Below, piece after piece: positions 25,041-64,000 of a stretch of 64,000 nt of DNA (within the stretch, counting starts at the first letter, position 1; every line of letters starts with the position of its first letter). The stretch comes from an uncultured Clostridia bacterium (GTDB lineage Bacteria > Bacillota > Clostridia > TANB77 > CAG-508): assembly GCA_944390695.1 (NCBI GenBank), contig CALXQP010000020.1, forward strand, positions 1,789 through 65,788, given 5' to 3'. Made by a program: the position numbers and the translations under genes. Below the pieces are notes generated by a model. It had not been told where the DNA came from. It made no database searches and was given only the letters and a program-made list of their open reading frames with translations.

Positions 25041-25286
25041 TTTCTTTAAAATTAACTCTCCTTTTTCCAATACTACTTTAGTTTACTACATTATGTTTAT
25101 TTAGTCAAGCTCTTTCTAATTTTGAATTTTTAAAGACCAACAATTTAATTAAATCAATCAAAACTATTGACTTTACATCTATTTCACTGTATAATTTTAA
25201 TTGTATTTTTTCAATATTTTTATTATTTATTTTTTATTTCTTAAAGTATTTTCGTACTAACTTTCAAAATAAGGAGGTGAATATAT

Positions 25287-25952
25287 ATGGAAAATAATGA
25301 TAAATTAGACTTAATTTTGAATAAATTAAGCCAAAATGACGATAGAATTGATTCAATTTTAAATAAGTTAATCCAAAATGATAATAGAATTTATTTAATC
25401 TGTGAAAATTTAAATTCTATGTCTGGACAAATTGATTCCTTAAATAAGCAAATTAATTCTATGTCGAGACAAATTGATTCCTTAAATAAGCAAATTAATT
25501 CTATGTCTGAACAAATTGATTCCTTAAATAAGCAAATTAATTCTATGTCCTTAAAATTAGAAGAACATGATAAGAAATTTGATATAGTCTTCGAAAAATT
25601 AGAACAACATGATAAAGAGTTCAAGGCTATAAATCAAAAACTTGATTTTGCTTTTGAAAAATTGGAACAACATGATAAAGAGTTCAAGGCTATAAATCAA
25701 AAACTTGACTTTGCATTTGAAAAATTGGAACAACATGATAAAGAATTCAAAACTATAAATCAAAAATTTGATATAGTATTTAATGAATTAGACAAACATT
25801 CTTGCCAATTATCAAATATTAATAGAAGATTTGATTTAACATTATTAGAACTAAAAAAAGATTTTAACACTATTGAGCAAAAATATAATGAAACAGATAA
25901 AAAAGTAGAAGATAATACTTTAAGAATTTCATTCTTAGAAGATGCCATTTAA
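25287..25952 (+). CDS. Coiled-coil protein built from tandem repeats
   Basis: 221 aa, SD AAGGAGG. 14-aa units SMSxQIDSLNKQIN ×3 and 20-aa units FEKLEQHDKEFKAINQKLDFA ×3. Heptad-like pattern throughout. Confidence 0.6.
   Translation: MENNDKLDLILNKLSQNDDRIDSILNKLIQNDNRIYLICENLNSMSGQIDSLNKQINSMSRQIDSLNKQINSMSEQIDSLNKQINSMSLKLEEHDKKFDIVFEKLEQHDKEFKAINQKLDFAFEKLEQHDKEFKAINQKLDFAFEKLEQHDKEFKTINQKFDIVFNELDKHSCQLSNINRRFDLTLLELKKDFNTIEQKYNETDKKVEDNTLRISFLEDAI
25417..25790 (+). repeat. Intragenic tandem DNA repeats (3×42 bp, then about 3×60 bp)
   Basis: ctatgtc[tg]gacaaattgattccttaaataagcaaattaatt repeated at 25417, 25459 and 25501. ttgaaaaattggaacaacatgataaagagttcaaggctataaatcaaaaacttgactttgc repeated from about 25590. 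Confidence 0.7.
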
Positions 25953-35911: not shown

Positions 35912-38900
35912 TTATCTTTCTATAAAATATCTTATAATTACACTATTATCAGTAATTTTTGTTGTATTATTTTGGTCTGCATTATAAGCATTTATATCAA
36001 AAGTTAATTGTTTAGTATTTGCATTATAAGCTACATAATTATTTGGTAGAGTTGAACAACTAAATAACTCTTCTCCATTATATTCAACAACTAATTTGTT
36101 TTCTGAATTTATCACTAAATTCTTTTCTAATTGAATTGTAATTTTTCCTGAAGTTGTTGTAACTGGTTTTTGAGGATTCATCTCTTCTTCTAAGTTTCTA
36201 AATATGTCTGCTAATGATTCTGCATCTTCTGCAGTTCTAACTTTTCCATCAGAAGATATATCTCCTAGAACTTCATAAGCATCTGAATCTGGGTCAATAG
36301 CATCTGAACCAAATCCTATTGAATAGATTGTTGCACTTCTCTTATTTTCTCCATCTTTTATTTTAGTAGCAGTGTTTGTAATATTATTTTTTGAGTTATC
36401 TTCATATCCATCAGTTCTAGTTGATGTTGGGTCTCCATCTCCTAAGAATATAACAACATTACTATTATTTGGATAAGTTGCTACAAGGCCATTATTTTTA
36501 TCATATATAACATCATAAGTTTTATCTAATGCTGCTTTTATATGTGTTCCATATCCTGAAGTAGCTGTTCCAATATCAATATTTCCTATTTCTGTTATTA
36601 AATCTTGATAATTTTTATTTGTTGCTGTAGTTTGGTCATTGTTTTTACCAAAAGTTAATACTCTTGTTCCAACATATTTGTTTCTATTACTTATTGATTT
36701 TTGGTTAAATGTTACAACAGTAATAGTTGCTTTAGAATCTGGATTTTTGTATACTTCTTTAATAAATTCTTGAGCTGCTTTTTTAGCTGCTTCTAATCTT
36801 GTTCCTTGTGATACATTTTTACCCCATATACCTGTACTCCATTGTTCTTCACATCCTTCAGGACAATACTCTCCCCACCAATTATAACTATGTTCATGTG
36901 TACATTTTACAAAAGTATAAATCTTTTCATTCATACTTGAAGATAGGTCTATTACTAATACTATATTATTAGCATCTTTTCCTTGTTCTCCTGGTTTTGT
37001 TCCTACTTCTACACCACTAATTTCATTTATTTTTGTTGTTACTTTATCTGTTTTATTTTCTGGTGTAGATGATGGTGTATCATCACTTAATTTGGCTGTA
37101 TTTTCAATTGTTTTACCAATTTGATCTGCATTTATTTTAACTGTAACTGTTAAATTAGTTATTCCATTATTTGCTGGAACTTCTATATTTGACCATGTAA
37201 CTACTCCATTTGCATATATACCACCATTATCTGATCTAACATATGTTACACCTTCTGGTAATATATCTGTAACTGTCGTTACTGTTCCTCTTGCTTTTCC
37301 AGTATTTGTTAATTTTATTGTATATGTTACTTCTTCTCCAACTTTTGCAGTCTTTGGAGCTAATTTTTCTATACTAATATCTGGTTTTCCATAATATACT
37401 CTAATTATATTATTTGCTGGATCTGCTGATATTGTCAAAGGTGTTCCTTCTATTCTATCTAATTGATATCCATTTGGCATATTTGATGTATCAATATCTT
37501 CAGCATTTATTTGACTTCCTAATAATGCTTTTAGACCTTGGCTTGTTTCAAATGGTTCTGTTTCTCCATCTTTATAATATTCTACAGTATAAGAAATTTC
37601 ATCTTTTACATAATATACTTCTATTATATTATTTTCTGGATTTGATGTTATTGTTAAAGGTGTTCCTTCTATTCTATCAAGTTTATATCCTGCTGGCATA
37701 TTTGATGTATCAACATCTTCTGCATTTATTTGGCTTCCAAATAATGCTTTTAGATCTTGATTTACTTCAAATGGTTCTGCTTCTCCATCTTTATAATATT
37801 TTACTGTATATGAGAATTCATCTCTTATATAATATACTTCAATGATATTTCGAGTTGGATCTGCTGTTACTTTTAGTGGTAATCCACTTGTTTTGTCAAA
37901 CTTATATCCATCTATATTTTTATCTGTATATGTACTAATAATAGAATCAAATTCTGCTTTTAAATTATCAGTTTTACTATCATCTTGAATTCCATCATAA
38001 TAGTACTTAACAGTATAATCTATCATTGCTTTTTCATAATAGAAATTGATTTCATTTCCTTCTAATTTTACTGTTATTGTTTGTTCTGTTGGATCAACTT
38101 TGTTATATCCAGGTATTTCTATTGCACTTTCTGTTATTTCACTATTAAATACTAATCCTGTTAATTCTTTGCTTTCTGCTAATTTTGTTGTTGTATCTTT
38201 TAAATAGTAATTTACTATTCCTGTTAATCCTGTTACTGGTGTATAGTAGAAGTTTATTTCATTTCCTTCTAATCCTACTGTTATTGTTTGTTCTGTTGGG
38301 TCAACTTTTTCATATCCAGGTATTTCTATTGCACTTTCTGTTACTTGGCTATTAAATACTAATCCTGTTAATTCTTTGCTTTCTGCTAATTTTGTCGTTG
38401 TTCCTTCTAAGTAGTAATTTACTATTCCTGTTAATCCTGTTACTGGTGTATAATAGAAGTTTATTTCATTTCCTTCTAATCCTACTGTTATTGTTTGTTC
38501 TGTTGGATCAACTTTTTCATATCCAGGTATTTCTATTGCATTTTCTGTTACTGTGCTATTAAATACTAATCCTGTTAATTCTTTGCTTTCTGCTAATTTT
38601 GTTGTTGTATCTTTTAAGTAGTAATTTACTATTCCTGTTAAATCTGTTCTTGGTTCATAGTAGAAATTAATTTCATTTCCTTCTAATTCTACTGTTATTG
38701 TTTGCTCTATTGGAGCTAACTTATTATATCCAGGAATATCTATTGCACTTTCTGTTACTGTGCTATTAAATACTAATCCTGTTAATTCTTTACTTTCTGC
38801 TAATTTTGTTGTTGTGTCTTTTAAATAGTAATTTACTATTCCTGTTAAATCTGTTCTTGGTTCATAATAGAAATTGATTTCATTTCCTTCTAATTTTACT

Positions 38901-40618
38901 GTTATTGTTTGCTCTGTTGGACCAAATTTATTATATCCAGGTATTTCTATTGCACTTTCTGTTACTTGGCTATTAAATACTAATCCTGTTAATTCTTTAC
39001 TTTTTGCTAATTTTGTTGTTGTATCTTTTAAATAGTAATTTACTATTCCTGTTAAGTCTGCTCTTGGTGTCCATTTTGCATAATATGTTGTTGTTCCTGC
39101 AGGATAATTTTCTGGTAAATTTGTAACTTTTTCTCCAGTAAATTCTGGATCAGCATACCATCCGTCAAATACATATCCTGGTCTTTCTGTTGTTGGCATA
39201 TTTCTATCTGTTATTGGCTCTCCTTTTATTCCTGTAAGGTCCTCAACTTCAGAACCACCATTTTCTTCAAATACTATATAAGATTCAACTTTTGTTGTAT
39301 CTGTATTAGTATCTGTTCCACCAACATTTGCTATATTTATTATTTCACTATCAATACTTGTTACTCTAACTTTAAAGCTTCTTGTTATTGTTTCATTTGC
39401 AGCTAAAGATATTGACCATGCAACTGTATCTTTTTCTTCTGATACTATTGCATCACCTTCTGCTGACACAAATTCTGTTCCTGTTGGAACTTTGTCTGAT
39501 ATATATGTTTTTCCTTCACCATCACCTGTATTTGATACAGTTATAGTATATGTAATAATATCACCTATTCTTGCAGCTTCAATTCCTTCTGTAATTTCTT
39601 CATTATCTTGAATTCTCGTTATAACACTTGATTTATTTGCTATTATTATTGATGTTTTTGTTTCTTCTTCTCCATCATCACCAGTACTCTTTTCTCCATT
39701 TGCTATAGCTGTATTTAGAATTGTTCCTGTTAATGGAACTAATACTCCATTTTCATCTAATTTATTTTCATTAACATTTACTGTGAATCTAGCAACTACT
39801 GTTTCTCCTGCTGGAACTGTTACAACCCATTTAACACCTTCAACTACATTTTCAGAGTTAACAGTTGTTTTTGTTCCTACAACTTCATTTGCTATAACTG
39901 CATCTTCAATAGATACAAAAGTAGTGTTTTCTGGTATTTTATCTGTTATTTCAATATTTTTTACATCTACTTCACTATTATTTGTTACAGATATAACATA
40001 TGTTAAATCTTGACCAGCATATACAAAATTGTCTCCTCCAACACCTGTTATTACTGATTTTCTAACATCTAATTGTGGTTTTTCTACATCTAATACAGTT
40101 GGTTGATCAACTTTAATTGCCATTGGTTCCCACCAATCGAAAAATTGTCTTGATACTATTCTCTCAACTTCTTCATATCTTGTAATTGTTGTTTCACCAA
40201 CTTCATTTACATCTGTCCCTGTTGTTATTTCTGCATTTTCATCATCATTATTATTTTCTGTATTACCTTCGTTGTTTGCTGTATTATCATTATTTACAGC
40301 TTCATTATCTGCATTATCATTGTTTTCATTATCATTATTGTTTTCTGATTCTTCACCTTCATTTTGAACAGGTGTTTCTGGATTTTCAGTTTCATTACCT
40401 ATATTAGGATCTGTATCTGAATTATCATTATTTTCAGTTTGATCTCCATCTACAGGTCGATTTCCATCATTTTCTTGTTCTGGAGTTGTTGTTGAAGTTT
40501 GGTCTCCATCAACAGCGGCTGTCTCTCCTCTAGTGTACAAGAATACTCCTACCGATATTCCAGCAATAAACAATAATACTACTACTGTGATAATAGCAAT
40601 AATACTCTTTTTGCTCAT
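35912..40618 (-). CDS. Giant surface adhesin: N-terminal TM anchor, acidic linker, DUF11 repeat domains, Listeria-Bacteroides repeat, 5+3 MucBP-like repeats, C-terminal von Willebrand factor A (VWA) domain
   Basis: 1568 aa. The MIDAS motif VLVIDLSSSM marks the VWA domain. DUF11-like blocks YTITVSNTGDG and VTYTIKLTNTGKARG. GYVFDGWYADPEF fits the Flg_new repeat. Five roughly 93-aa and three roughly 92-aa YY-containing β-repeats. No C-terminal LPXTG. Confidence 0.8.
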   Translation of the reverse strand: MSKKSIIAIITVVVLLFIAGISVGVFLYTRGETAAVDGDQTSTTTPEQENDGNRPVDGDQTENNDNSDTDPNIGNETENPETPVQNEGEESENNNDNENNDNADNEAVNNDNTANNEGNTENNNDDENAEITTGTDVNEVGETTITRYEEVERIVSRQFFDWWEPMAIKVDQPTVLDVEKPQLDVRKSVITGVGGDNFVYAGQDLTYVISVTNNSEVDVKNIEITDKIPENTTFVSIEDAVIANEVVGTKTTVNSENVVEGVKWVVTVPAGETVVARFTVNVNENKLDENGVLVPLTGTILNTAIANGEKSTGDDGEEETKTSIIIANKSSVITRIQDNEEITEGIEAARIGDIITYTITVSNTGDGEGKTYISDKVPTGTEFVSAEGDAIVSEEKDTVAWSISLAANETITRSFKVRVTSIDSEIINIANVGGTDTNTDTTKVESYIVFEENGGSEVEDLTGIKGEPITDRNMPTTERPGYVFDGWYADPEFTGEKVTNLPENYPAGTTTYYAKWTPRADLTGIVNYYLKDTTTKLAKSKELTGLVFNSQVTESAIEIPGYNKFGPTEQTITVKLEGNEINFYYEPRTDLTGIVNYYLKDTTTKLAESKELTGLVFNSTVTESAIDIPGYNKLAPIEQTITVELEGNEINFYYEPRTDLTGIVNYYLKDTTTKLAESKELTGLVFNSTVTENAIEIPGYEKVDPTEQTITVGLEGNEINFYYTPVTGLTGIVNYYLEGTTTKLAESKELTGLVFNSQVTESAIEIPGYEKVDPTEQTITVGLEGNEINFYYTPVTGLTGIVNYYLKDTTTKLAESKELTGLVFNSEITESAIEIPGYNKVDPTEQTITVKLEGNEINFYYEKAMIDYTVKYYYDGIQDDSKTDNLKAEFDSIISTYTDKNIDGYKFDKTSGLPLKVTADPTRNIIEVYYIRDEFSYTVKYYKDGEAEPFEVNQDLKALFGSQINAEDVDTSNMPAGYKLDRIEGTPLTITSNPENNIIEVYYVKDEISYTVEYYKDGETEPFETSQGLKALLGSQINAEDIDTSNMPNGYQLDRIEGTPLTISADPANNIIRVYYGKPDISIEKLAPKTAKVGEEVTYTIKLTNTGKARGTVTTVTDILPEGVTYVRSDNGGIYANGVVTWSNIEVPANNGITNLTVTVKINADQIGKTIENTAKLSDDTPSSTPENKTDKVTTKINEISGVEVGTKPGEQGKDANNIVLVIDLSSSMNEKIYTFVKCTHEHSYNWWGEYCPEGCEEQWSTGIWGKNVSQGTRLEAAKKAAQEFIKEVYKNPDSKATITVVTFNQKSISNRNKYVGTRVLTFGKNNDQTTATNKNYQDLITEIGNIDIGTATSGYGTHIKAALDKTYDVIYDKNNGLVATYPNNSNVVIFLGDGDPTSTRTDGYEDNSKNNITNTATKIKDGENKRSATIYSIGFGSDAIDPDSDAYEVLGDISSDGKVRTAEDAESLADIFRNLEEEMNPQKPVTTTSGKITIQLEKNLVINSENKLVVEYNGEELFSCSTLPNNYVAYNANTKQLTFDINAYNADQNNTTKITDNSVIIRYFIER
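36820..39060 (-). repeat. Intragenic tandem repeats (5 × about 279 bp, then 3 × about 276 bp) encoding MucBP-like modules
   Basis: Near-identical DNA units are visible, for example ...catttccttctaatcctactgttattgtttgttctgttgg... recurring every roughly 279 bp between about 37660 and 39060. Confidence 0.75.
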
Positions 40619-40647: not shown

Positions 40648-41271
40648 CTATAAAATTTCTTTAGCTTTTAATATAAGTCTTTGTTTATTTCCATTTGTAC
40701 ATGTAATTAATGTTACTTCTCTTACGAGTTCATCTTTTGCTAATAAAATATTTACATCATTAGGGTCTGTTACAAAGATATCATAAATTGAATATTGAAT
40801 TGTTTGACCTTTTAAGTCTGTTAATTCTACTATATCTCCAATTTTTAATTTTTTTGTTTTTCCAAACATTGTACCATCTCTGTTATTATGACCTGCTATT
40901 GATAAATTTCCATAATCATTTACATTTTCGCCCCAATATTTTATTATGGATAATTTCATTGGTTTTTTTGCATTTTCCGGGTCAATTTCTCCAATTTCTA
41001 ATATTGGATATTCTATATCTATTTGCGGAATTTTTACTATTCCAATCACTTTATACCCTTTATATTCTAATTGAATTTGCTCCCCTGATTCTTCTGGATT
41101 ACTAGAAAAATCTATATTACTAAAAGCAGCTACTGCTTCTTGAGTTTCTTTCTCATTTTTTTGATTACTACCATATTTATAAACTATCATGCCAATAATT
41201 ACAATTGCTGCTATTAATAACATATAAAAAATTGCTTTGTAAATTTTTAGTTCAATACTATTTTTCTTCAT
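40648..41271 (-). CDS. Sortase (TLITC active site), paralog of the 10269-11036 sortase
   Basis: 207 aa. N-terminal TM, IAGHNNR catalytic His and REVTLITCT catalytic Cys. Aligns block-for-block with the other sortase (YKGYKV/YRGYDV, KKLKIGD, I[IL]KAKE). Confidence 0.8.
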   Translation of the reverse strand: MKKNSIELKIYKAIFYMLLIAAIVIIGMIVYKYGSNQKNEKETQEAVAAFSNIDFSSNPEESGEQIQLEYKGYKVIGIVKIPQIDIEYPILEIGEIDPENAKKPMKLSIIKYWGENVNDYGNLSIAGHNNRDGTMFGKTKKLKIGDIVELTDLKGQTIQYSIYDIFVTDPNDVNILLAKDELVREVTLITCTNGNKQRLILKAKEIL

Positions 41272-59464: not shown

Positions 59465-59899
59465 ATGAATAACGTTACATATAGTGCAAAAAAAGAAACA
59501 GTTGAAAGAAAATGGTATATAATTGATGCTGCTAACAAACCACTTGGTAGAGTTGCTACTGAAGCTGCTAGATTATTAAGAGGAAAACACAAACCAACTT
59601 TCACACCAAATATTGATACAGGAGATAATGTTATAATTATCAATTGCAAAGATGTTGTATTAACAGGAAATAAAAGAAATCAAAAAATGTATAGACAACA
59701 TTCAGGTGAGATTGGAGGAATGAAAGAAACTCCAGCTTCTGTAATGCTTGAAAAAAATCCAGAAAGAGCTATGACATTAGCTATTAAAGGAATGTTACCA
59801 CACAATTCTTTAGGAAGAAAAATGGCAACAAAATTAAGAGTATTTGCTGGAAGTGAACACAATCTACAAGCACAAAAACCAGAAATATGGAATTTTTAA
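59465..59899 (+). CDS. rplM: 50S ribosomal protein L13
   Basis: 144 aa. The [35 protein letters not shown] signature. Confidence 0.95.
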
Positions 59900-59917
59900 T
59901 AAGGAGGAACTATTATA

Positions 59918-60319
59918 ATGGCTAAGTCAAATAAAATCGTATACATGGGTACAGGTAGAAGAAAAAGTTCAATAGCTAGAGTAAGATTAGTTGAAGGAAC
60001 TGGAAAAATAACAATCAACGGAAAAGATATTGAAGAATTCTTTAATTTAGAAACTTTAAAAGTTATTGTTAGACAACCATTAACAGTTACAAATACATTA
60101 GCAAAATATGATGTAATTTGTTCAGTTTATGGTGGTGGAGTTTCTGGTCAAGCTGGAGCTGTTAGACATGGAATTGCTAGAGCTTTAAATGAAGCTAACT
60201 CAGAATTCAGACCTGTTTTAAAATCAAATGGCTTATTAACAAGAGACCCACGTATGAAAGAAAGAAAAAAATATGGTATGAAAAAAGCAAGAAAAGCACC
60301 ACAATTCTCAAAAAGATAA
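59918..60319 (+). CDS. rpsI: 30S ribosomal protein S9
   Basis: 133 aa. C-terminal [27 protein letters not shown] signature. Confidence 0.95.
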
Positions 60320-60353
60320 TCTGCTTTTTTATCAAAATTTTATCAAACTTTAT

Positions 60354-60397
60354 CAAACCTCAGAAGTTTTATTCGAAACTTGTGAGGTTTTTATTTT
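60354..60397 (+). terminator. Intrinsic terminator of the rplM-rpsI operon
   Basis: Stem AACCTCAGAAGTT / AACTTGTGAGGTT followed by TTTTATTTTTGG. Confidence 0.6.
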
Positions 60398-60722
60398 TGG
60401 TTGTTCCCTCTCTGCTTTGTATCCTTTCTATCTCTTTTCTATTTCTTTTATTATATTAATGTATTATATTAATGGCTAAAAAATTTTAATCTTGAAAATA
60501 TTTTTATTTACTTATATAGAACTTAAAAATGAAAATTAAAATTAAAATTGAAATGAAAATGAAATTAAATAAAATATTAGTAATTGAATTTTTTATATTA
60601 ATATTCGATATTAATTTATTCTTCTTAAATTATTATTGATTACTAGCAGCTATGCTATGAATTAAATTTTTTTGAAAATTTAAAATTTTTGATCTAAAAT
60701 TTAAAAATATTTGACTTTTTTA

Positions 60723-63700
60723 TTAATTTTTATTGATTAAACATTTCGCAAAATTGGTATTTTGCGAAGCTATCTTCGTGAATGCTGGGCCAAGGTCTAG
60801 GGTGGTCATTGATTCTTCTCCACACATATGAAACATATAATTCATCTTTGTTACTTCACTCGTATCAAATTTATCCCCTAAGTCTAAACTTGTCATTGAT
60901 GTATATCCACAACTATAGAACATATTTGTCATATTTGTTACATTGCTTGTATCAAATTTATCTCCTAAGTCTAAACTTGTCATTGCTATAGCTCCACACC
61001 CATAGAACATATATTGCATATCCGTTACACTACTTGTATCAAAATTATCTCCTAAGTCTAAACTTGTCATTGCTGTATATCCACAACCATAAAACATATT
61101 ACTCATATCTGTTACACTATTTGTATTAAAATTAGGACCTAAATTTAAAGTTGTCATCGCTTTATTTCCACAACTATTAAACATAAAATTCATGTCTGTT
61201 ACATTGCTTGTATCAAAATTTTCTCCTAAGTCTAAACTTGTCATTGCCGTATATCCACAATTATAGAACATACTTTTCATCTCTGTTACTTGACTTGTAT
61301 CAAATTTATCCCCTAAGTCTAAACTTGTCATTGCTTTATATCCACACATAGTAAACATATAACTCATATTTGTTACATTACTTGTATCAAAATTATCTCC
61401 TAAGTCTAAACTTGTCATTGTAGAAAATCCACACTGAAAGAACATACTATCCATATTTGTTACATTACTTATATTTAGTAAATCTATGTTCACAATTACA
61501 TCTGTTGCTGTACAAGTATTAAAAAAACCTATATTTGAAAATAAACGACTTGAATCCGGATTAGCCTTTATTTCTCCTGAATCGGTTCCTATATATACTT
61601 GATATGGATTATTTCCCGTGTACCATGCCATTATTGAACCATCTTGTGTATCTGAAACATCCCATGCTGTACTATTTGCTCCTGCCGTACTATCTACAAA
61701 TGTTACTTTTTCAATGTACTGTCTCTGTAATGCTGTATTTCCTAGAAATGGACTTGTCATTGCTGTTTCTGTGTTTGTTGCTCTTAATGTTGCTTCTCTG
61801 TATATTGGGTTTATTCTTCCTAATACGCCTGAAACTGTTGTTGTCGAATTCGCATTTAGCTTAAATAGCTTTTGAGTTTGATATATATCTTCATGTGCAT
61901 ATATTGTGGTATTCGAATGACCACAATTTGTAATAAAATTTGTATGTTCAGTTGCTATATTCTTAAATTCTGGCCCTAGATCTAATACATTTAATGAACC
62001 ACTTCCGCAATAATAAAACATCTCACGCATATTTGTTACATTACTTGTGTCAAACTTGTCTCCTAGGTCTAGCATAGCTAAGTTCCCTTCACCACATCTC
62101 CAAAACATACCCTCCATATTTGTCACATTGCTTGTATCAAACTTATCTCCTAAACCGAACGATATCATTTTATATCCACAGTTACTAAACATATATCTCA
62201 TATCTGTTACTTGACTTGTATTAAACTTATCACCTAAACTAAAGCTCGTCATTTCATTCGTACCACAATTATTGAACATATATCTCATATCTGTTACATT
62301 ACTTGTATCAAAATTAGCTCCTAAGTCTAAGCTTGTCATTGCGTTCATTCCACAGAATTGAAACATACCAAGCATATTAGTTACTTTGCTAGTATCAAAA
62401 TTATCTCCTAAATCTAAATTTGTCATAGCTTCACGTCCACAATTATCAAACATAAACATCATGTTATTCACTTGACTTGTATTTAATAAATCTAGATTTA
62501 CTATTACATCTGTTGCTGTACAAGTACTTGCATAACCTATTCCATTAAATAAATAACTAGAATTTTGATTTGCTATTATCTCTCCTGAATCGGTTCCTAT
62601 ATATACTTGATATGGATTACTTCCTGTGTACCATGCCATTATTGAACCATTTTGCTCTACTGATACATCCCATGCTGTACTGTTTGCCCCTGATGTACTA
62701 TCTACAAATGTTATTTTTTCAATGTACTGTCTTTGCAATGCTGTGTTTCCTAAAAATGGACTTGTTCGTGATGTTTCTCCATTTGTTGCCATTAATGTGC
62801 CTGGCTCAGTAACTGATTCATACTCTGCAATTAATGTTGCACCTGTTGGAACCCTAATTGTTGTTGTAGAATCTTTTCCTGTTTTAAATAAACTGCTACT
62901 ATAATATATATCTTCTGATACATAAATATTGGGTGAATCACCACAATCCGTTATAAAATTACTATGACTTGATGCGATTTTGGTGAATTTGGGGCCTAAA
63001 TCTAAAGTAGTTATTCCTCCTTCTCCACAACTAGAAAACATGCTATTCATATTAGTTACTTTACTTGTGTCAAATTTATCTCCTAAGTCTAATGTTCTCA
63101 ATTCATTACCTGCAAACATCCAAAACATATAACTCATATTTGTTACTTCACTTGTATCAAATTTATCTCCTAAGTCTAATGTTTGAAGATCAGAGCATGC
63201 TTGAAAAAACATTTCACTCATATTTGTTACTTTACTTGTATCAAAATTGTTACCCAAATCTAAACTACTTCCACAGCCTAATCTATAAAACATTCTACTC
63301 ATATTTGTTACATTGCTTGTATTAAATTTGTCTCCTAAATCAAGACTCTCACAAGTAAACTCCTCAAACATAGCACTCATATTTGTTACTTTACTTGTAT
63401 CAAATTTTGAACCCAAATTAAAAGCCGTCCAGTCTTGTCCAAAATATCTAAACATGTAACTCATATTTGTTACTTTACTTGTATCAAATTTGTCTCCTAA
63501 ATCAAAATCATCTTCTACTGTTCCATATGTTCCACATTTGTCAAACATATATGCCATATCTGTTACATTACTTGTATCAAAATTAGGTCCTAGATTTAAA
63601 GTTTTTAAATCATAATATCCACATTGTTTGAACATTCCTCTCATATTTGTTACATTACTTGTATTTAGCAATTCTAAATCTATTACCATACTTGGATCAG

Positions 63701-64000
63701 CTGTAATTTCGTTGTACGGCCAATCTATATCATAAAACAAATATCTAGAATCTTGATTTGCATATATTTCACTGTCACTACCTATAGTTACATCATATAC
63801 CAAAAAAGTTGTTCCATCATCATAATCTTCTAGTCTTGTAGATTCATACCAAGCTAATATTGAACCATCTTGTGCCGCTGATACATCCCAAGCTGTATCG
63901 TCAGCATTTCGAGTACTGCTTACAAAATCTATAGATTGAACATATTTTCTCTCTATCTCACTATTTCCTAAAAAATAGCCTGTATCAAATTCATTTTTAG
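60723..64000 (-). CDS. Giant DUF285/BspA-like repeat surface protein (5' end lies beyond the window)
   Basis: Minus-strand frame is open from 60723 to the window edge. Dozens of roughly 23-aa units of the form DLGDKFDTSNVTNMSYMFYGCGY.AMTSL (DUF285 hallmark FDTS.VT.M..MF). These are interrupted by a roughly 150-200-aa module (…FLGNTALQRQYIEKITFVDSTSGANSTAWDVS…MAWYTGSNPYQVYIGTDSGEI…) present three times. Confidence 0.7.
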   Translation of the reverse strand, partial: KNEFDTGYFLGNSEIERKYVQSIDFVSSTRNADDTAWDVSAAQDGSILAWYESTRLEDYDDGTTFLVYDVTIGSDSEIYANQDSRYLFYDIDWPYNEITADPSMVIDLELLNTSNVTNMRGMFKQCGYYDLKTLNLGPNFDTSNVTDMAYMFDKCGTYGTVEDDFDLGDKFDTSKVTNMSYMFRYFGQDWTAFNLGSKFDTSKVTNMSAMFEEFTCESLDLGDKFNTSNVTNMSRMFYRLGCGSSLDLGNNFDTSKVTNMSEMFFQACSDLQTLDLGDKFDTSEVTNMSYMFWMFAGNELRTLDLGDKFDTSKVTNMNSMFSSCGEGGITTLDLGPKFTKIASSHSNFITDCGDSPNIYVSEDIYYSSSLFKTGKDSTTTIRVPTGATLIAEYESVTEPGTLMATNGETSRTSPFLGNTALQRQYIEKITFVDSTSGANSTAWDVSVEQNGSIMAWYTGSNPYQVYIGTDSGEIIANQNSSYLFNGIGYASTCTATDVIVNLDLLNTSQVNNMMFMFDNCGREAMTNLDLGDNFDTSKVTNMLGMFQFCGMNAMTSLDLGANFDTSNVTDMRYMFNNCGTNEMTSFSLGDKFNTSQVTDMRYMFSNCGYKMISFGLGDKFDTSNVTNMEGMFWRCGEGNLAMLDLGDKFDTSNVTNMREMFYYCGSGSLNVLDLGPEFKNIATEHTNFITNCGHSNTTIYAHEDIYQTQKLFKLNANSTTTVSGVLGRINPIYREATLRATNTETAMTSPFLGNTALQRQYIEKVTFVDSTAGANSTAWDVSDTQDGSIMAWYTGNNPYQVYIGTDSGEIKANPDSSRLFSNIGFFNTCTATDVIVNIDLLNISNVTNMDSMFFQCGFSTMTSLDLGDNFDTSNVTNMSYMFTMCGYKAMTSLDLGDKFDTSQVTEMKSMFYNCGYTAMTSLDLGENFDTSNVTDMNFMFNSCGNKAMTTLNLGPNFNTNSVTDMSNMFYGCGYTAMTSLDLGDNFDTSSVTDMQYMFYGCGAIAMTSLDLGDKFDTSNVTNMTNMFYSCGYTSMTSLDLGDKFDTSEVTKMNYMFHMCGEESMTTLDLGPAFTKIASQNTNFAKCLINKN
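60780..63990 (-). repeat. Macro-repeats (about 1.0-1.2 kb period, about 90% DNA identity) nested with 69-bp micro-repeats inside the DUF285 gene
   Basis: 61596-61760 versus 62604-62770 differ only at scattered positions. A third copy lies at about 63848-63985. Confidence 0.75.

What the first reader, a model, noticed from the sequence alone, without database searches (positions are those of the whole stretch)
60723..64000. Giant DUF285/BspA-like repeat protein with recent roughly 1-kb macro-duplications, truncated by the window edge
More than 3.2 kb of continuous minus-strand ORF is built from roughly 23-aa units carrying the DUF285 hallmark (FDTSNVTNMSYMF...CG), a motif I recall as Mycoplasma-associated. 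Roughly 300-aa super-units repeat three times. Each pairs about ten such repeats with a distinct roughly 150-200-aa module. DNA identity between super-units is about 90% (for example 61596-61760 versus 62604-62770). Nested repeats like this are recombination-prone and typical of variable surface antigens or adhesins. It is the most repetitive locus in the window. The gene follows the rplM-rpsI terminator and its N-terminus lies beyond the window.
Basis: seen in the sequence. Interest (0 to 1): 0.6.

Follow-up and report, generated by a model that had tools for sequence, protein, structure and literature searches.

The report
Three-domain DUF285 repeat surface protein
The window ends inside an ordinary, if large, secreted or surface protein of an uncultured gut-type Clostridia bacterium, built from three leucine-rich-repeat-like binding domains of a very common family (DUF285/PARCEL); it is real and correctly assembled, but neither giant, recently duplicated nor visibly variable between strains.

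Summary
The minus-strand frame 60723-64000 is open to the window edge. It is the 3' two thirds of a 1613-aa gene, recovered whole from a near-identical public contig. Pfam DUF285 (E 1e-89) and NCBIfam TIGR02167 'PARCEL repeat' (E 3e-81) match strongly; LRR_5 does not.

The nested structure is real but was mis-measured:
- There are 22 units of 26-31 aa (mostly 29, not 23).
- They sit in three super-units of 407, 337 and 347 aa, with 8, 6 and 8 units.
- Each super-unit is N-cap, solenoid, then C-cap. AlphaFold gives one super-unit pLDDT 95.
- About 90% DNA identity holds only for the N-cap of units 2 and 3. Whole super-units are 75-79% (nt) and 52-59% (aa) identical, with dS 0.4-0.6, so the duplication is not recent.

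The window and two further contigs from other samples give the same 1613-aa gene. None shows any difference in the repeat region. That excludes an assembly artefact and shows no length polymorphism.

The host has a cell wall and uses genetic code 11. Its ClpC is 84% identical to a Clostridia MAG protein, so it is not a Mollicute. The same N-cap occurs in 1558 protein clusters, often 2-7 times per protein.

Verdict: a new member of a known, functionally uncharacterised family, most likely a multivalent binding protein. Low interest.

The parts
60723..64000 (-). 3' 1091 codons plus stop of a 1613-aa DUF285/PARCEL-repeat protein gene. The full gene is L001 10806-15647 (-), equivalent to window coordinates 60723-65564.
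   Evidence: Open frame to the window edge. Full gene recovered from a contig with 3 mismatches in 14,083 nt of overlap, none in the gene. PF03382 E 1.2e-89. TIGR02167 E 3.1e-81.
62778..63998 (-). Super-unit 1 (aa 523-929). N-cap 63672-63998, with an 11-residue insertion relative to the other two caps. Eight repeat units of 26-31 aa at 63000-63671. C-cap plus linker at 62778-62999.
   Evidence: Landmarks and unit list. N-cap HMM hit E 2e-47. It is 51% identical to super-unit 2, no closer than external homologues.
61767..62777 (-). Super-unit 2 (aa 930-1266). N-cap 62490-62777. Six repeat units at 61980-62489. C-cap plus T/S/N-rich linker at 61767-61979.
   Evidence: AlphaFold2 model: pLDDT 95.3, pTM 0.91. 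The cap is a strand-rich region, followed by one short strand every 28-29 residues. The last 9 residues are disordered. N-cap HMM E 1e-54.
60726..61766 (-). Super-unit 3 (aa 1267-1613). N-cap 61482-61766. Eight regular 29-aa units at 60795-61481. Short 23-aa C-cap at 60726-60794, which ends the protein.
   Evidence: TRF 87-nt period, 7.4 copies, 80% matches. Unit list. N-cap 88% nt and 82% aa identical to that of super-unit 2.
60320..60722 (.). AT-rich (about 14% GC) intergenic spacer between the converging rpsI and the DUF285 gene. It contains short simple repeats.
59465..60319 (+). rplM (59465-59899) and rpsI (59918-60319), the neighbours that converge on the gene. They are context only, not part of the feature.
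   Evidence: TIGR01066 E 3e-59 and NF001099 E 2.3e-57.

Best explanation
The locus encodes a 1613-aa exported protein of an uncultured, walled, low-GC Clostridia-class bacterium. The parts, from the N-terminus, are as follows.
1. A basic-then-hydrophobic N-terminal segment (aa 1-29, ending in an AYA motif). It acts as a Sec signal or an uncleaved membrane anchor.
2. A roughly 170-aa domain that is shared with other proteins.
3. An acidic E/Q/N/T-rich spacer (aa 198-340).
4. A second unassigned region (aa 341-522).
5. Three autonomous domains joined by short flexible linkers.

Each of the three domains is a capped leucine-rich-repeat-type solenoid of the DUF285/PARCEL family. It consists of a roughly 95-aa N-cap, 6-8 rungs of about 29 aa (LDLGDxFDTSxVTxMxxMFxxCGxxxMTS) and a C-cap.

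The conserved residues build the solenoid core. Seven positions per rung (16, 17, 20, 21 and 24-26) are hypervariable and make a different exposed surface in each rung and each domain.

The most likely function is multivalent binding, that is, adhesion to a host, dietary or microbial ligand that is not yet known.

The three domains arose by internal duplication. Units 2 and 3 are each other's closest relatives; unit 1 is older or was recombined in. They have since diverged under purifying selection.

What is shown: the gene structure, family membership, predicted fold and stability across assemblies. What is inferred: the surface location, the binding function and the role of the variable positions.
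For: - Family: PF03382 scores 296.6 bits and TIGR02167 266 bits. At least 7443 homologues were found, all with PF03382. The named ones are called 'BspA family leucine-rich repeat surface protein'.
- Fold: the AF2 model of super-unit 2 has pLDDT 95.3, with one beta-strand per repeat. Foldseek matches predicted viral DUF285 proteins at E 2e-8. The top, non-significant, PDB hits are LRR ectodomains and InlB.
- Export: there is a GGAGG ribosome-binding site before the ATG. The only hydrophobic segment is aa 5-34, with a Kyte-Doolittle 19-residue mean up to 2.42.
- Variable and conserved positions are tabulated.
- Purifying selection: omega is 0.27 for the N-cap and 0.45 for the repeats.
- Internal duplication: super-unit 3 is 66% identical to super-unit 2, against at most 54% for external homologues.
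- Real and stable: the window, L001 and L021 come from different samples and have identical repeat regions.
- The architecture is common: the N-cap profile hits 1558 clusters. Of the best 147 proteins, 114 have two or more caps, and some have the same roughly 330-aa spacing.
- Functional analogy from the literature. Deleting the L. lactis DUF285/MucBP/Big_3 protein lowers adhesion to mucin and polystyrene (PMC5071367). The M. bovis DUF285 protein MbovP0145 is secreted and binds beta-actin (PMC8707762).
Against: - No ligand, expression or localisation data exist for this protein.
- No DUF285 domain has a solved structure that sequence, profile or Foldseek searches could find. The fold therefore rests on prediction.
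- There is no LPXTG motif, lipobox or recognised wall-binding domain. Retention on the cell is thus uncertain, and the protein may simply be released.
- The strand face (LDLGD) is conserved rather than variable. This is the reverse of classic ligand-binding LRRs, so where a ligand would bind is unclear.
Confidence: 0.75

Rival explanations
1. It is a size- or antigen-variable surface protein. On this view the nested repeats recombine often, changing unit or super-unit number between cells or strains to evade phage or host immunity.
For: Exact intragenic direct repeats of 42, 39 and 37 nt exist in register with the 87-nt period. This is long enough for RecA-dependent unequal exchange. Relatives carry 1-7 caps per protein, so copy number does change over evolutionary time. 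The PARCEL literature reports variants among mycoplasma lipoproteins (PMC2996958).
Against: The window and the two other assemblies from other samples give the same 1613-aa length and 0 differences in 3.3 kb of repeats. Units are only about 70% identical to one another, and dS between super-units is 0.4-0.6. No homopolymer or short-repeat phase switch or invertible element is visible upstream of the gene; the intergenic simple repeats lie downstream of its stop codon.
Confidence: 0.12
2. The repeat structure is an assembly artefact, a collapse or expansion of repeats in a short-read metagenome assembly.
For: The sequence comes from metagenome assemblies. Two contigs both end about 1 kb upstream of the gene, next to a duplicated small ORF.
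Against: The window and two independently assembled contigs from two other samples agree base for base over the repeats. The frame is intact for 1613 codons. The units are diverged (70-80%), which short reads resolve easily. The AF2 model of a super-unit is highly confident.
Confidence: 0.02
3. It is a horizontally acquired PARCEL cargo gene with no specific role in this host, part of the 'mobilome' described by Roske et al.
For: The gene has the highest GC3 (0.199) of the 33 long ORFs in the window, whose range is 0.076-0.196. The family has a punctate distribution across Firmicutes, Bacteroidota, Campylobacterota, phages and giant viruses (PMC2996958).
Against: The GC3 excess is small. No integrase, transposase or tRNA flank was seen next to the gene. 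It sits beside rplM-rpsI in all three assemblies. Omega below 0.5 indicates that the protein is maintained by selection. The dyad symmetry claimed for PARCEL DNA is not detectable here.
Confidence: 0.1

Closest known systems
DUF285 (Pfam PF03382), TIGR02167 'PARCEL repeat-containing surface protein' and PARCELs of Roske et al. 2010 (PMC2996958)
   Same: It has the same repeat signature (xDTSxVTxMxxMF). Hydrophobic positions are conserved and hydrophilic positions between them are hypervariable. The arrays are tandem, an N-terminal membrane-targeting segment is present, and the function is unassigned.
   Different: The unit is 29 aa with an LDLGD strand and a CG pair, against the canonical 25-26 aa (W-D-x-S...F-N-Q-D-I). 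The arrays are packaged into three capped domains. The predicted structure is a beta-strand-per-rung solenoid, not the amphipathic helices proposed in 2010. No dyad symmetry was detectable. The host is a walled Clostridia bacterium, not a Mollicute.
Multi-cap DUF285 proteins in metagenomic Firmicutes, for example P0127 (1131 aa, caps at 8/346/673), P0128 (1795 aa, 4 caps), and the giant frames of L002 (2282 aa and over 6140 aa)
   Same: They have the same N-cap module followed by DUF285 rungs, repeated in tandem at roughly 330-400-aa spacing.
   Different: They are below 50% identical overall. Cap numbers differ, and in the giant proteins the inter-domain regions are much longer.
BspA of Tannerella forsythia and TpLRR-type (Pfam LRR_5, PF13306) surface proteins
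   Same: They are bacterial surface solenoid repeat proteins used for adhesion. NCBI uses 'BspA family' as the product name for DUF285 homologues.
   Different: LRR_5 gives no HMM hit here. The repeat consensus and length differ. The solved LRR_5 structure 4fdw aligns poorly (TM 0.24, E 0.31).
Lactococcus lactis AJ89_07570 (DUF285 + MucBP + Big_3) and Mycoplasma bovis MbovP0145 / LppQ-type lipoproteins
   Same: They are DUF285-bearing exported proteins. These are the only family members with experimental links to adhesion or host-protein binding.
   Different: Those have one DUF285 region plus a sortase, MucBP or lipoprotein anchor. This protein has three capped regions, no lipobox and no LPXTG. 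NF045896 (Mbov_0838 family) scores 73 bits against a cut-off of 500.

Membership tests
Pfam DUF285 (PF03382) | Match to the family HMM above the gathering score | tested here: met
   296.6 bits against a cut-off of 25, E 1.2e-89, 8 stretches.
NCBIfam TIGR02167 PARCEL repeat | Match to the 26-residue repeat HMM above the cut-off, in tandem copies | tested here: met
   266.2 bits against a cut-off of 30, 16 stretches. 22 units were found by motif.
PARCEL (Roske et al. 2010) | Conserved hydrophobic positions alternating with highly variable hydrophilic positions in tandem units | tested here: met
   V12, M15, M18 and F19 are invariant. Positions 16, 17, 20, 21 and 24-26 have entropy of 2.4-3.1 bits.
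PARCEL (Roske et al. 2010) | Dyad symmetry (palindromic motif) in the repeat-coding DNA | tested here: inconclusive
   The best dyad of the 87-nt consensus has 21 of 43 pairs, against 19.8 +/- 1.3 in shuffles. Inverted 7-mers number 69, against 63.9 +/- 11.9. Only one inverted repeat was found. The original work used MEME in palindrome mode, which was not available here.
PARCEL (Roske et al. 2010) | Association with mobile elements or signs of horizontal transfer | tested here: inconclusive
   GC3 is the highest of 33 ORFs but only marginally so. No mobile-element gene is adjacent, and the rplM-rpsI synteny is fixed.
Leucine-rich-repeat-type solenoid fold | One short beta-strand per repeat stacking into a parallel sheet, with capping elements | tested here: met
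BspA / TpLRR (Pfam LRR_5, PF13306) | Match to the LRR_5 HMM | tested here: not met
   Only PF03382 was reported at E <= 0.01.
Mycoplasma PARCEL lipoproteins (LppQ, Mbov_0838 family NF045896) | Lipobox cysteine after the signal peptide, and a family HMM score above the cut-off | tested here: not met
   There is no Cys in aa 1-40. NF045896 scores 73.4 bits against a cut-off of 500. The host uses code 11 and has peptidoglycan genes.
Sortase-anchored (LPXTG) surface proteins | C-terminal LPXTG motif, hydrophobic stretch and basic tail | tested here: not met
   The protein ends ...NFAKCLINKN. The only hydrophobic segment is N-terminal.
Type IV pilin-fused DUF285 proteins (PF07963 + PF03382 homologues) | Prepilin G-F-T-L-x-E cleavage and methylation motif at the N-terminus | tested here: not met
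   The motif is absent from MLKNKLIMKKIRNIVILLMVIVIMIGAYA. PF07963 is seen only in homologues.
Size-variable surface antigens | Repeat-number polymorphism between strains or samples | tested here: not met
   The window and two other assemblies all encode 1613 aa, with 0 differences in the repeats. The sample is very small.
Diversity-generating retroelement target | A template repeat and a reverse transcriptase near a variable region with adenine-specific changes | tested here: not met
   No second copy of the variable 104-nt patch exists in the window, L001 or L021. Five of the 12 changes are synonymous. Only about 80 kb could be searched.

The most novel reading that the evidence does not exclude
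The gene's off-window N-terminal roughly 200 aa may define an undescribed surface-display or sorting module. This region includes an unusually conserved signal-anchor: the first 40 residues are about 80% identical between proteins that are otherwise only 47-56% alike. The module is shared by about 35 protein clusters whose C-terminal payloads differ (DUF285, Laminin_G_3, a PPIase domain or nothing recognisable).

On this reading, a lineage-specific module of uncultured Clostridia has had the three DUF285 domains plugged onto it. The 104-nt patch that holds all 12 differences between two otherwise identical 15.8-kb contigs would then be a gene-conversion tract exchanged between paralogous copies of this module.
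Probability: 0.2. Interest if true: 0.4.

Novelty: new member of a known kind. Interest (0 to 1): 0.15.

Why it matters
It matters little beyond annotation. The result gives a clean domain map (cap, 29-aa rungs, cap, three times) and a confident predicted fold for a family that Pfam still names after Mycoplasma and that has no solved structure found here. It also shows that the helical model proposed in 2010 is probably wrong for this variant. Tandem capped DUF285 domains prove to be a widespread architecture in gut and rumen Firmicutes, reaching proteins of over 7000 aa. That makes them reasonable candidates for adhesins in uncultured commensals, but nothing here is surprising to a specialist.

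Tried and rejected
- **Mollicute origin or code 4.** Rejected. Table 11 open frames of at least 150 codons already cover 87% of the window, while reading TGA as sense gives overlapping frames (115%). MurB, a SpoVB/MurJ-like gene and a sortase are present.
- **Assembly artefact.** Rejected.
- **LRR_5 / strict BspA membership.** No hit.
- **DGR explanation for the SNP cluster.** No template copy was found, and 5 of the 12 changes are synonymous.
- **PARCEL dyad symmetry.** Not above shuffles.
- **Species name.** The genome-contig scan found only distant relatives; the best was 46% identical, in a Clostridia MAG. The metagenome-contig scan found nothing close. Cluster look-ups carried no names. 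Only a class-level label came from a ClpC homologue.
- **Positional orthology of individual repeat units between super-units.** Only the cap-proximal first unit of each super-unit groups together. The others do not pair one to one.
- **Paralogue of the N-terminal module inside the window.** None found.
Full report
**Observation**

Translation of the minus strand from 63998 down to 60723 gives 1091 codons without a stop, ending in TAA at 60723-60725.

The ribosomal protein S9 gene next door was used to look up the same locus in public assemblies. This returned an ENA metagenome contig (L001, 27.9 kb). Its 14,083-nt overlap with the window has three mismatches, none in this gene. In L001 the gene is 4842 nt (1613 aa) and is preceded by a GGAGG ribosome-binding site. 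The window thus holds aa 523-1613.

rplM (59465-59899) and rpsI (59918-60319) are confirmed and converge on the gene across a 403-nt spacer of about 14% GC. The consensus scan found no convincing rpsI terminator.

**Family**

Pfam gives only DUF285 (PF03382, 296.6 bits, E 1.2e-89, 8 stretches). LRR_5 is not hit. NCBIfam gives TIGR02167, now named 'PARCEL repeat-containing surface protein' (266 bits, 16 stretches). The mycoplasma lipoprotein model NF045896 scores far below its cut-off.

A search with one super-unit found at least 7443 homologues, all carrying PF03382. The few that have names are called 'BspA family leucine-rich repeat surface protein', from Bacilli or Firmicutes MAGs.

**Anatomy**

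The motif [FL][DN][TI][SN]xVxxMxxMF occurs 22 times in the gene. In the window it is found only in this frame. Unit length is 26-31 aa, and 29 aa in 16 of 22 units. TRF finds 87-, 84- and 81-nt periods.

The units fall into three blocks of 8, 6 and 8. Each block is preceded by a roughly 95-aa module (FLGN...TAWDVS..DGSI.AWY...Y.V.IG...I.AN..S..LF). Each is followed by a cap that begins LGPxF(T/K)xIA.

- Super-unit 1 is aa 523-929 (window 62778-63998).
- Super-unit 2 is aa 930-1266 (61767-62777).
- Super-unit 3 is aa 1267-1613 (60726-61766). Its C-cap is cut short by the end of the protein.

AlphaFold2 on super-unit 2, with a 62-row alignment, gives pLDDT 95.3 and pTM 0.91. The model has a strand-rich N-cap, then one short strand every 28-29 residues (the LDL of each unit), and a disordered last nine residues. 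This is a capped solenoid joined to the next one by a flexible linker.

Within the 29-aa unit, L1, D2, L3, G4, D5, F7, D8, T9, S10, V12, T13, M15, M18, F19, C22, G23, M27 and T28 are conserved. Positions 16, 17, 20, 21 and 24-26 are hypervariable.

**How similar, and how old**

Those caps are 88% (nt) and 82% (aa) identical overall. Whole super-units are 75-79% (nt) and 52-59% (aa) identical. Unit cores average about 70% nt identity with no one-to-one correspondence, except for the first, cap-proximal unit of each block.

Nei-Gojobori estimates between super-units 2 and 3 are as follows:

| Region | dS | dN | omega |
|---|---|---|---|
| N-cap | 0.42 | 0.115 | 0.27 |
| Repeats 1-3 | 0.64 | 0.29 | 0.45 |

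The duplication is therefore old and the copies are under purifying selection.

In the homologue alignment, super-unit 3 is 66% identical to super-unit 2. Super-unit 1 is 51% identical, and external proteins reach at most 54%. The 2/3 duplication is thus lineage-specific. Super-unit 1 is either older or was acquired by recombination.

**Artefact or polymorphism?**

The 90% cluster of the full protein has two members, both 1613 aa. The second sits on a contig from another sample (L021).

L001 and L021 align without gaps over 15,796 nt with only 12 differences. All 12 lie in codons 32-66 of this gene, and none in the repeats. Together with the window, that makes three concordant assemblies. The repeat structure is real, and no length variation is seen.

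Exact intragenic repeats of 42, 39 and 37 nt exist. Unequal exchange is therefore possible in principle, but it was not observed.

**Host**

The host is not a Mollicute.

- Table 11 open frames of at least 150 codons cover 87% of the window.
- Neighbouring genes include MurB, a SpoVB/MurJ-type flippase, HU and ClpC.
- The window also carries a sortase.
- The only named close ClpC relative (84% identical) is from a 'Clostridia bacterium' MAG.

The species is not among the GTDB representative genomes, as far as the pattern scan could tell.

**How common is the architecture?**

A profile of the three N-caps was run against 1.84 billion representative proteins. It hit 1558 at E <= 1e-3.

Of the best 147, 114 carry 2-7 caps and the median spacing is about 400 aa. 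P0127 and P0128 have the same roughly 330-aa spacing as here. Others reach 7740 aa. A Clostridia MAG locus (L002) has two adjacent frames, of 2282 aa and over 6140 aa, with 2 and 3 caps. Tandem capped DUF285 domains are thus a recurrent, if undescribed, architecture.

**Comparison with what is known**

The repeat family was described as PARCELs (PMC2996958). That paper describes a 25-residue unit with conserved hydrophobic and variable hydrophilic positions and frequent membrane-targeting signals. It proposes horizontal spread, amphipathic helices and dyad symmetry of the coding DNA.

Here the first two features hold. The predicted structure is a beta-solenoid rather than helices. Dyad symmetry is not above shuffled controls by my simple tests. 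Evidence for transfer is limited to a marginally high GC3: 0.199, the highest of 33 ORFs, whose range is 0.076-0.196.

No solved structure of the family was found by sequence, by profile or by Foldseek. The top PDB hits are LRR proteins at non-significant E-values. Predicted viral DUF285 proteins match at E 2e-8.

Experimental hints for the family come from two proteins. One is L. lactis AJ89_07570, whose deletion reduces adhesion (PMC5071367). The other is M. bovis MbovP0145, which is secreted and binds beta-actin (PMC8707762).

**Mechanism proposed**

The protein is exported through the N-terminal signal or anchor. An acidic low-complexity spacer follows, then three independently folded solenoid domains whose variable positions present different surfaces. 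Together these suggest multivalent binding.

There is no LPXTG motif, lipobox or pilin motif. Attachment, if any, would be through the N-terminal helix or the unassigned N-terminal domain.

**Verdict**

It is wrong about recency, overall identity and the Mycoplasma link, and it is unsupported on variability. This is a new member of a known, very large family. Interest is low.

Noticed in passing
L001 15450-15553 (window-equivalent 65367-65470, beyond the window edge; codons 32-66 of the gene): All 12 nucleotide differences between two otherwise identical 15.8-kb contigs from different samples fall in this 104-nt patch. Six amino acids change and five of the differences are synonymous. Eleven of the 12 involve an A on the coding strand. 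No template-like second copy was found, so a short recombination or gene-conversion tract is the likeliest cause.
   Followed up: partly
L001 15048-15647 (aa 1-200 of the gene, off-window): The N-terminal roughly 200 aa is shared at 47-56% identity by about 35 protein clusters. It includes a nearly invariant signal-anchor (MLKNKxIxKKIRNIxILLMxIxIMxGAYxNIRxSKAENVI). The C-terminal parts of these clusters differ (DUF285, Laminin_G_3, PPIase or none). This may be a lineage-specific leader or anchoring module. No paralogue lies in the window.
   Followed up: partly
window 35912-40618 (-), with 40648-41271 (-): A second large surface protein (1568 aa; DUF11, Flg_new, DUF7927 and VWA_2 domains) lies next to a sortase gene. 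It contains the highest-scoring tandem array in the window: 207 nt x 5 at 92% (38033-39068), plus 219 nt x 2.4 (37385-37909).
   Followed up: partly
L001 16059-16256 and 16300-16557 (-), upstream of the gene: Two small paralogous ORFs (65 and 85 aa, both starting MDEEWIERIKRNERKKEK...) are 92% identical apart from a 20-aa insertion and have no family match. Two of the assemblies' contigs end about 1 kb upstream of the big gene, just beyond this pair.
   Followed up: no
L002 2-6847 and 7097-25516 (+) (CAKPLQ010000002.1, uncultured Clostridia MAG): Two adjacent open frames of 2282 aa and over 6140 aa (the second runs off the fetched locus) carry 2 and 3 copies of the same N-cap plus DUF285 module. 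These are truly giant relatives.
   Followed up: partly
homologues P0009-P0113 and the PDB profile hits: Many single-super-unit homologues of about 450-590 aa start with a type IV prepilin N-terminal domain (PF07963). DUF285 solenoids may therefore often be displayed on type IV pilus-like fibres in Firmicutes. This protein lacks that motif.
   Followed up: no
window 25291-25799 (+ strand frame 25281-25949): Tandem 42-nt and 63-nt repeats (up to 95% matches) lie inside a 223-codon frame. The repeat units look coiled-coil-like (…QIDSLNKQI…). Not examined.
   Followed up: no
window 60723-63998 compared with the rest of the window: The gene has the highest third-position GC (0.199) of the 33 open frames of at least 200 codons; the median is about 0.12. 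Its off-window 5' 600 nt reaches GC3 0.30. This is a weak hint of foreign origin.
   Followed up: partly
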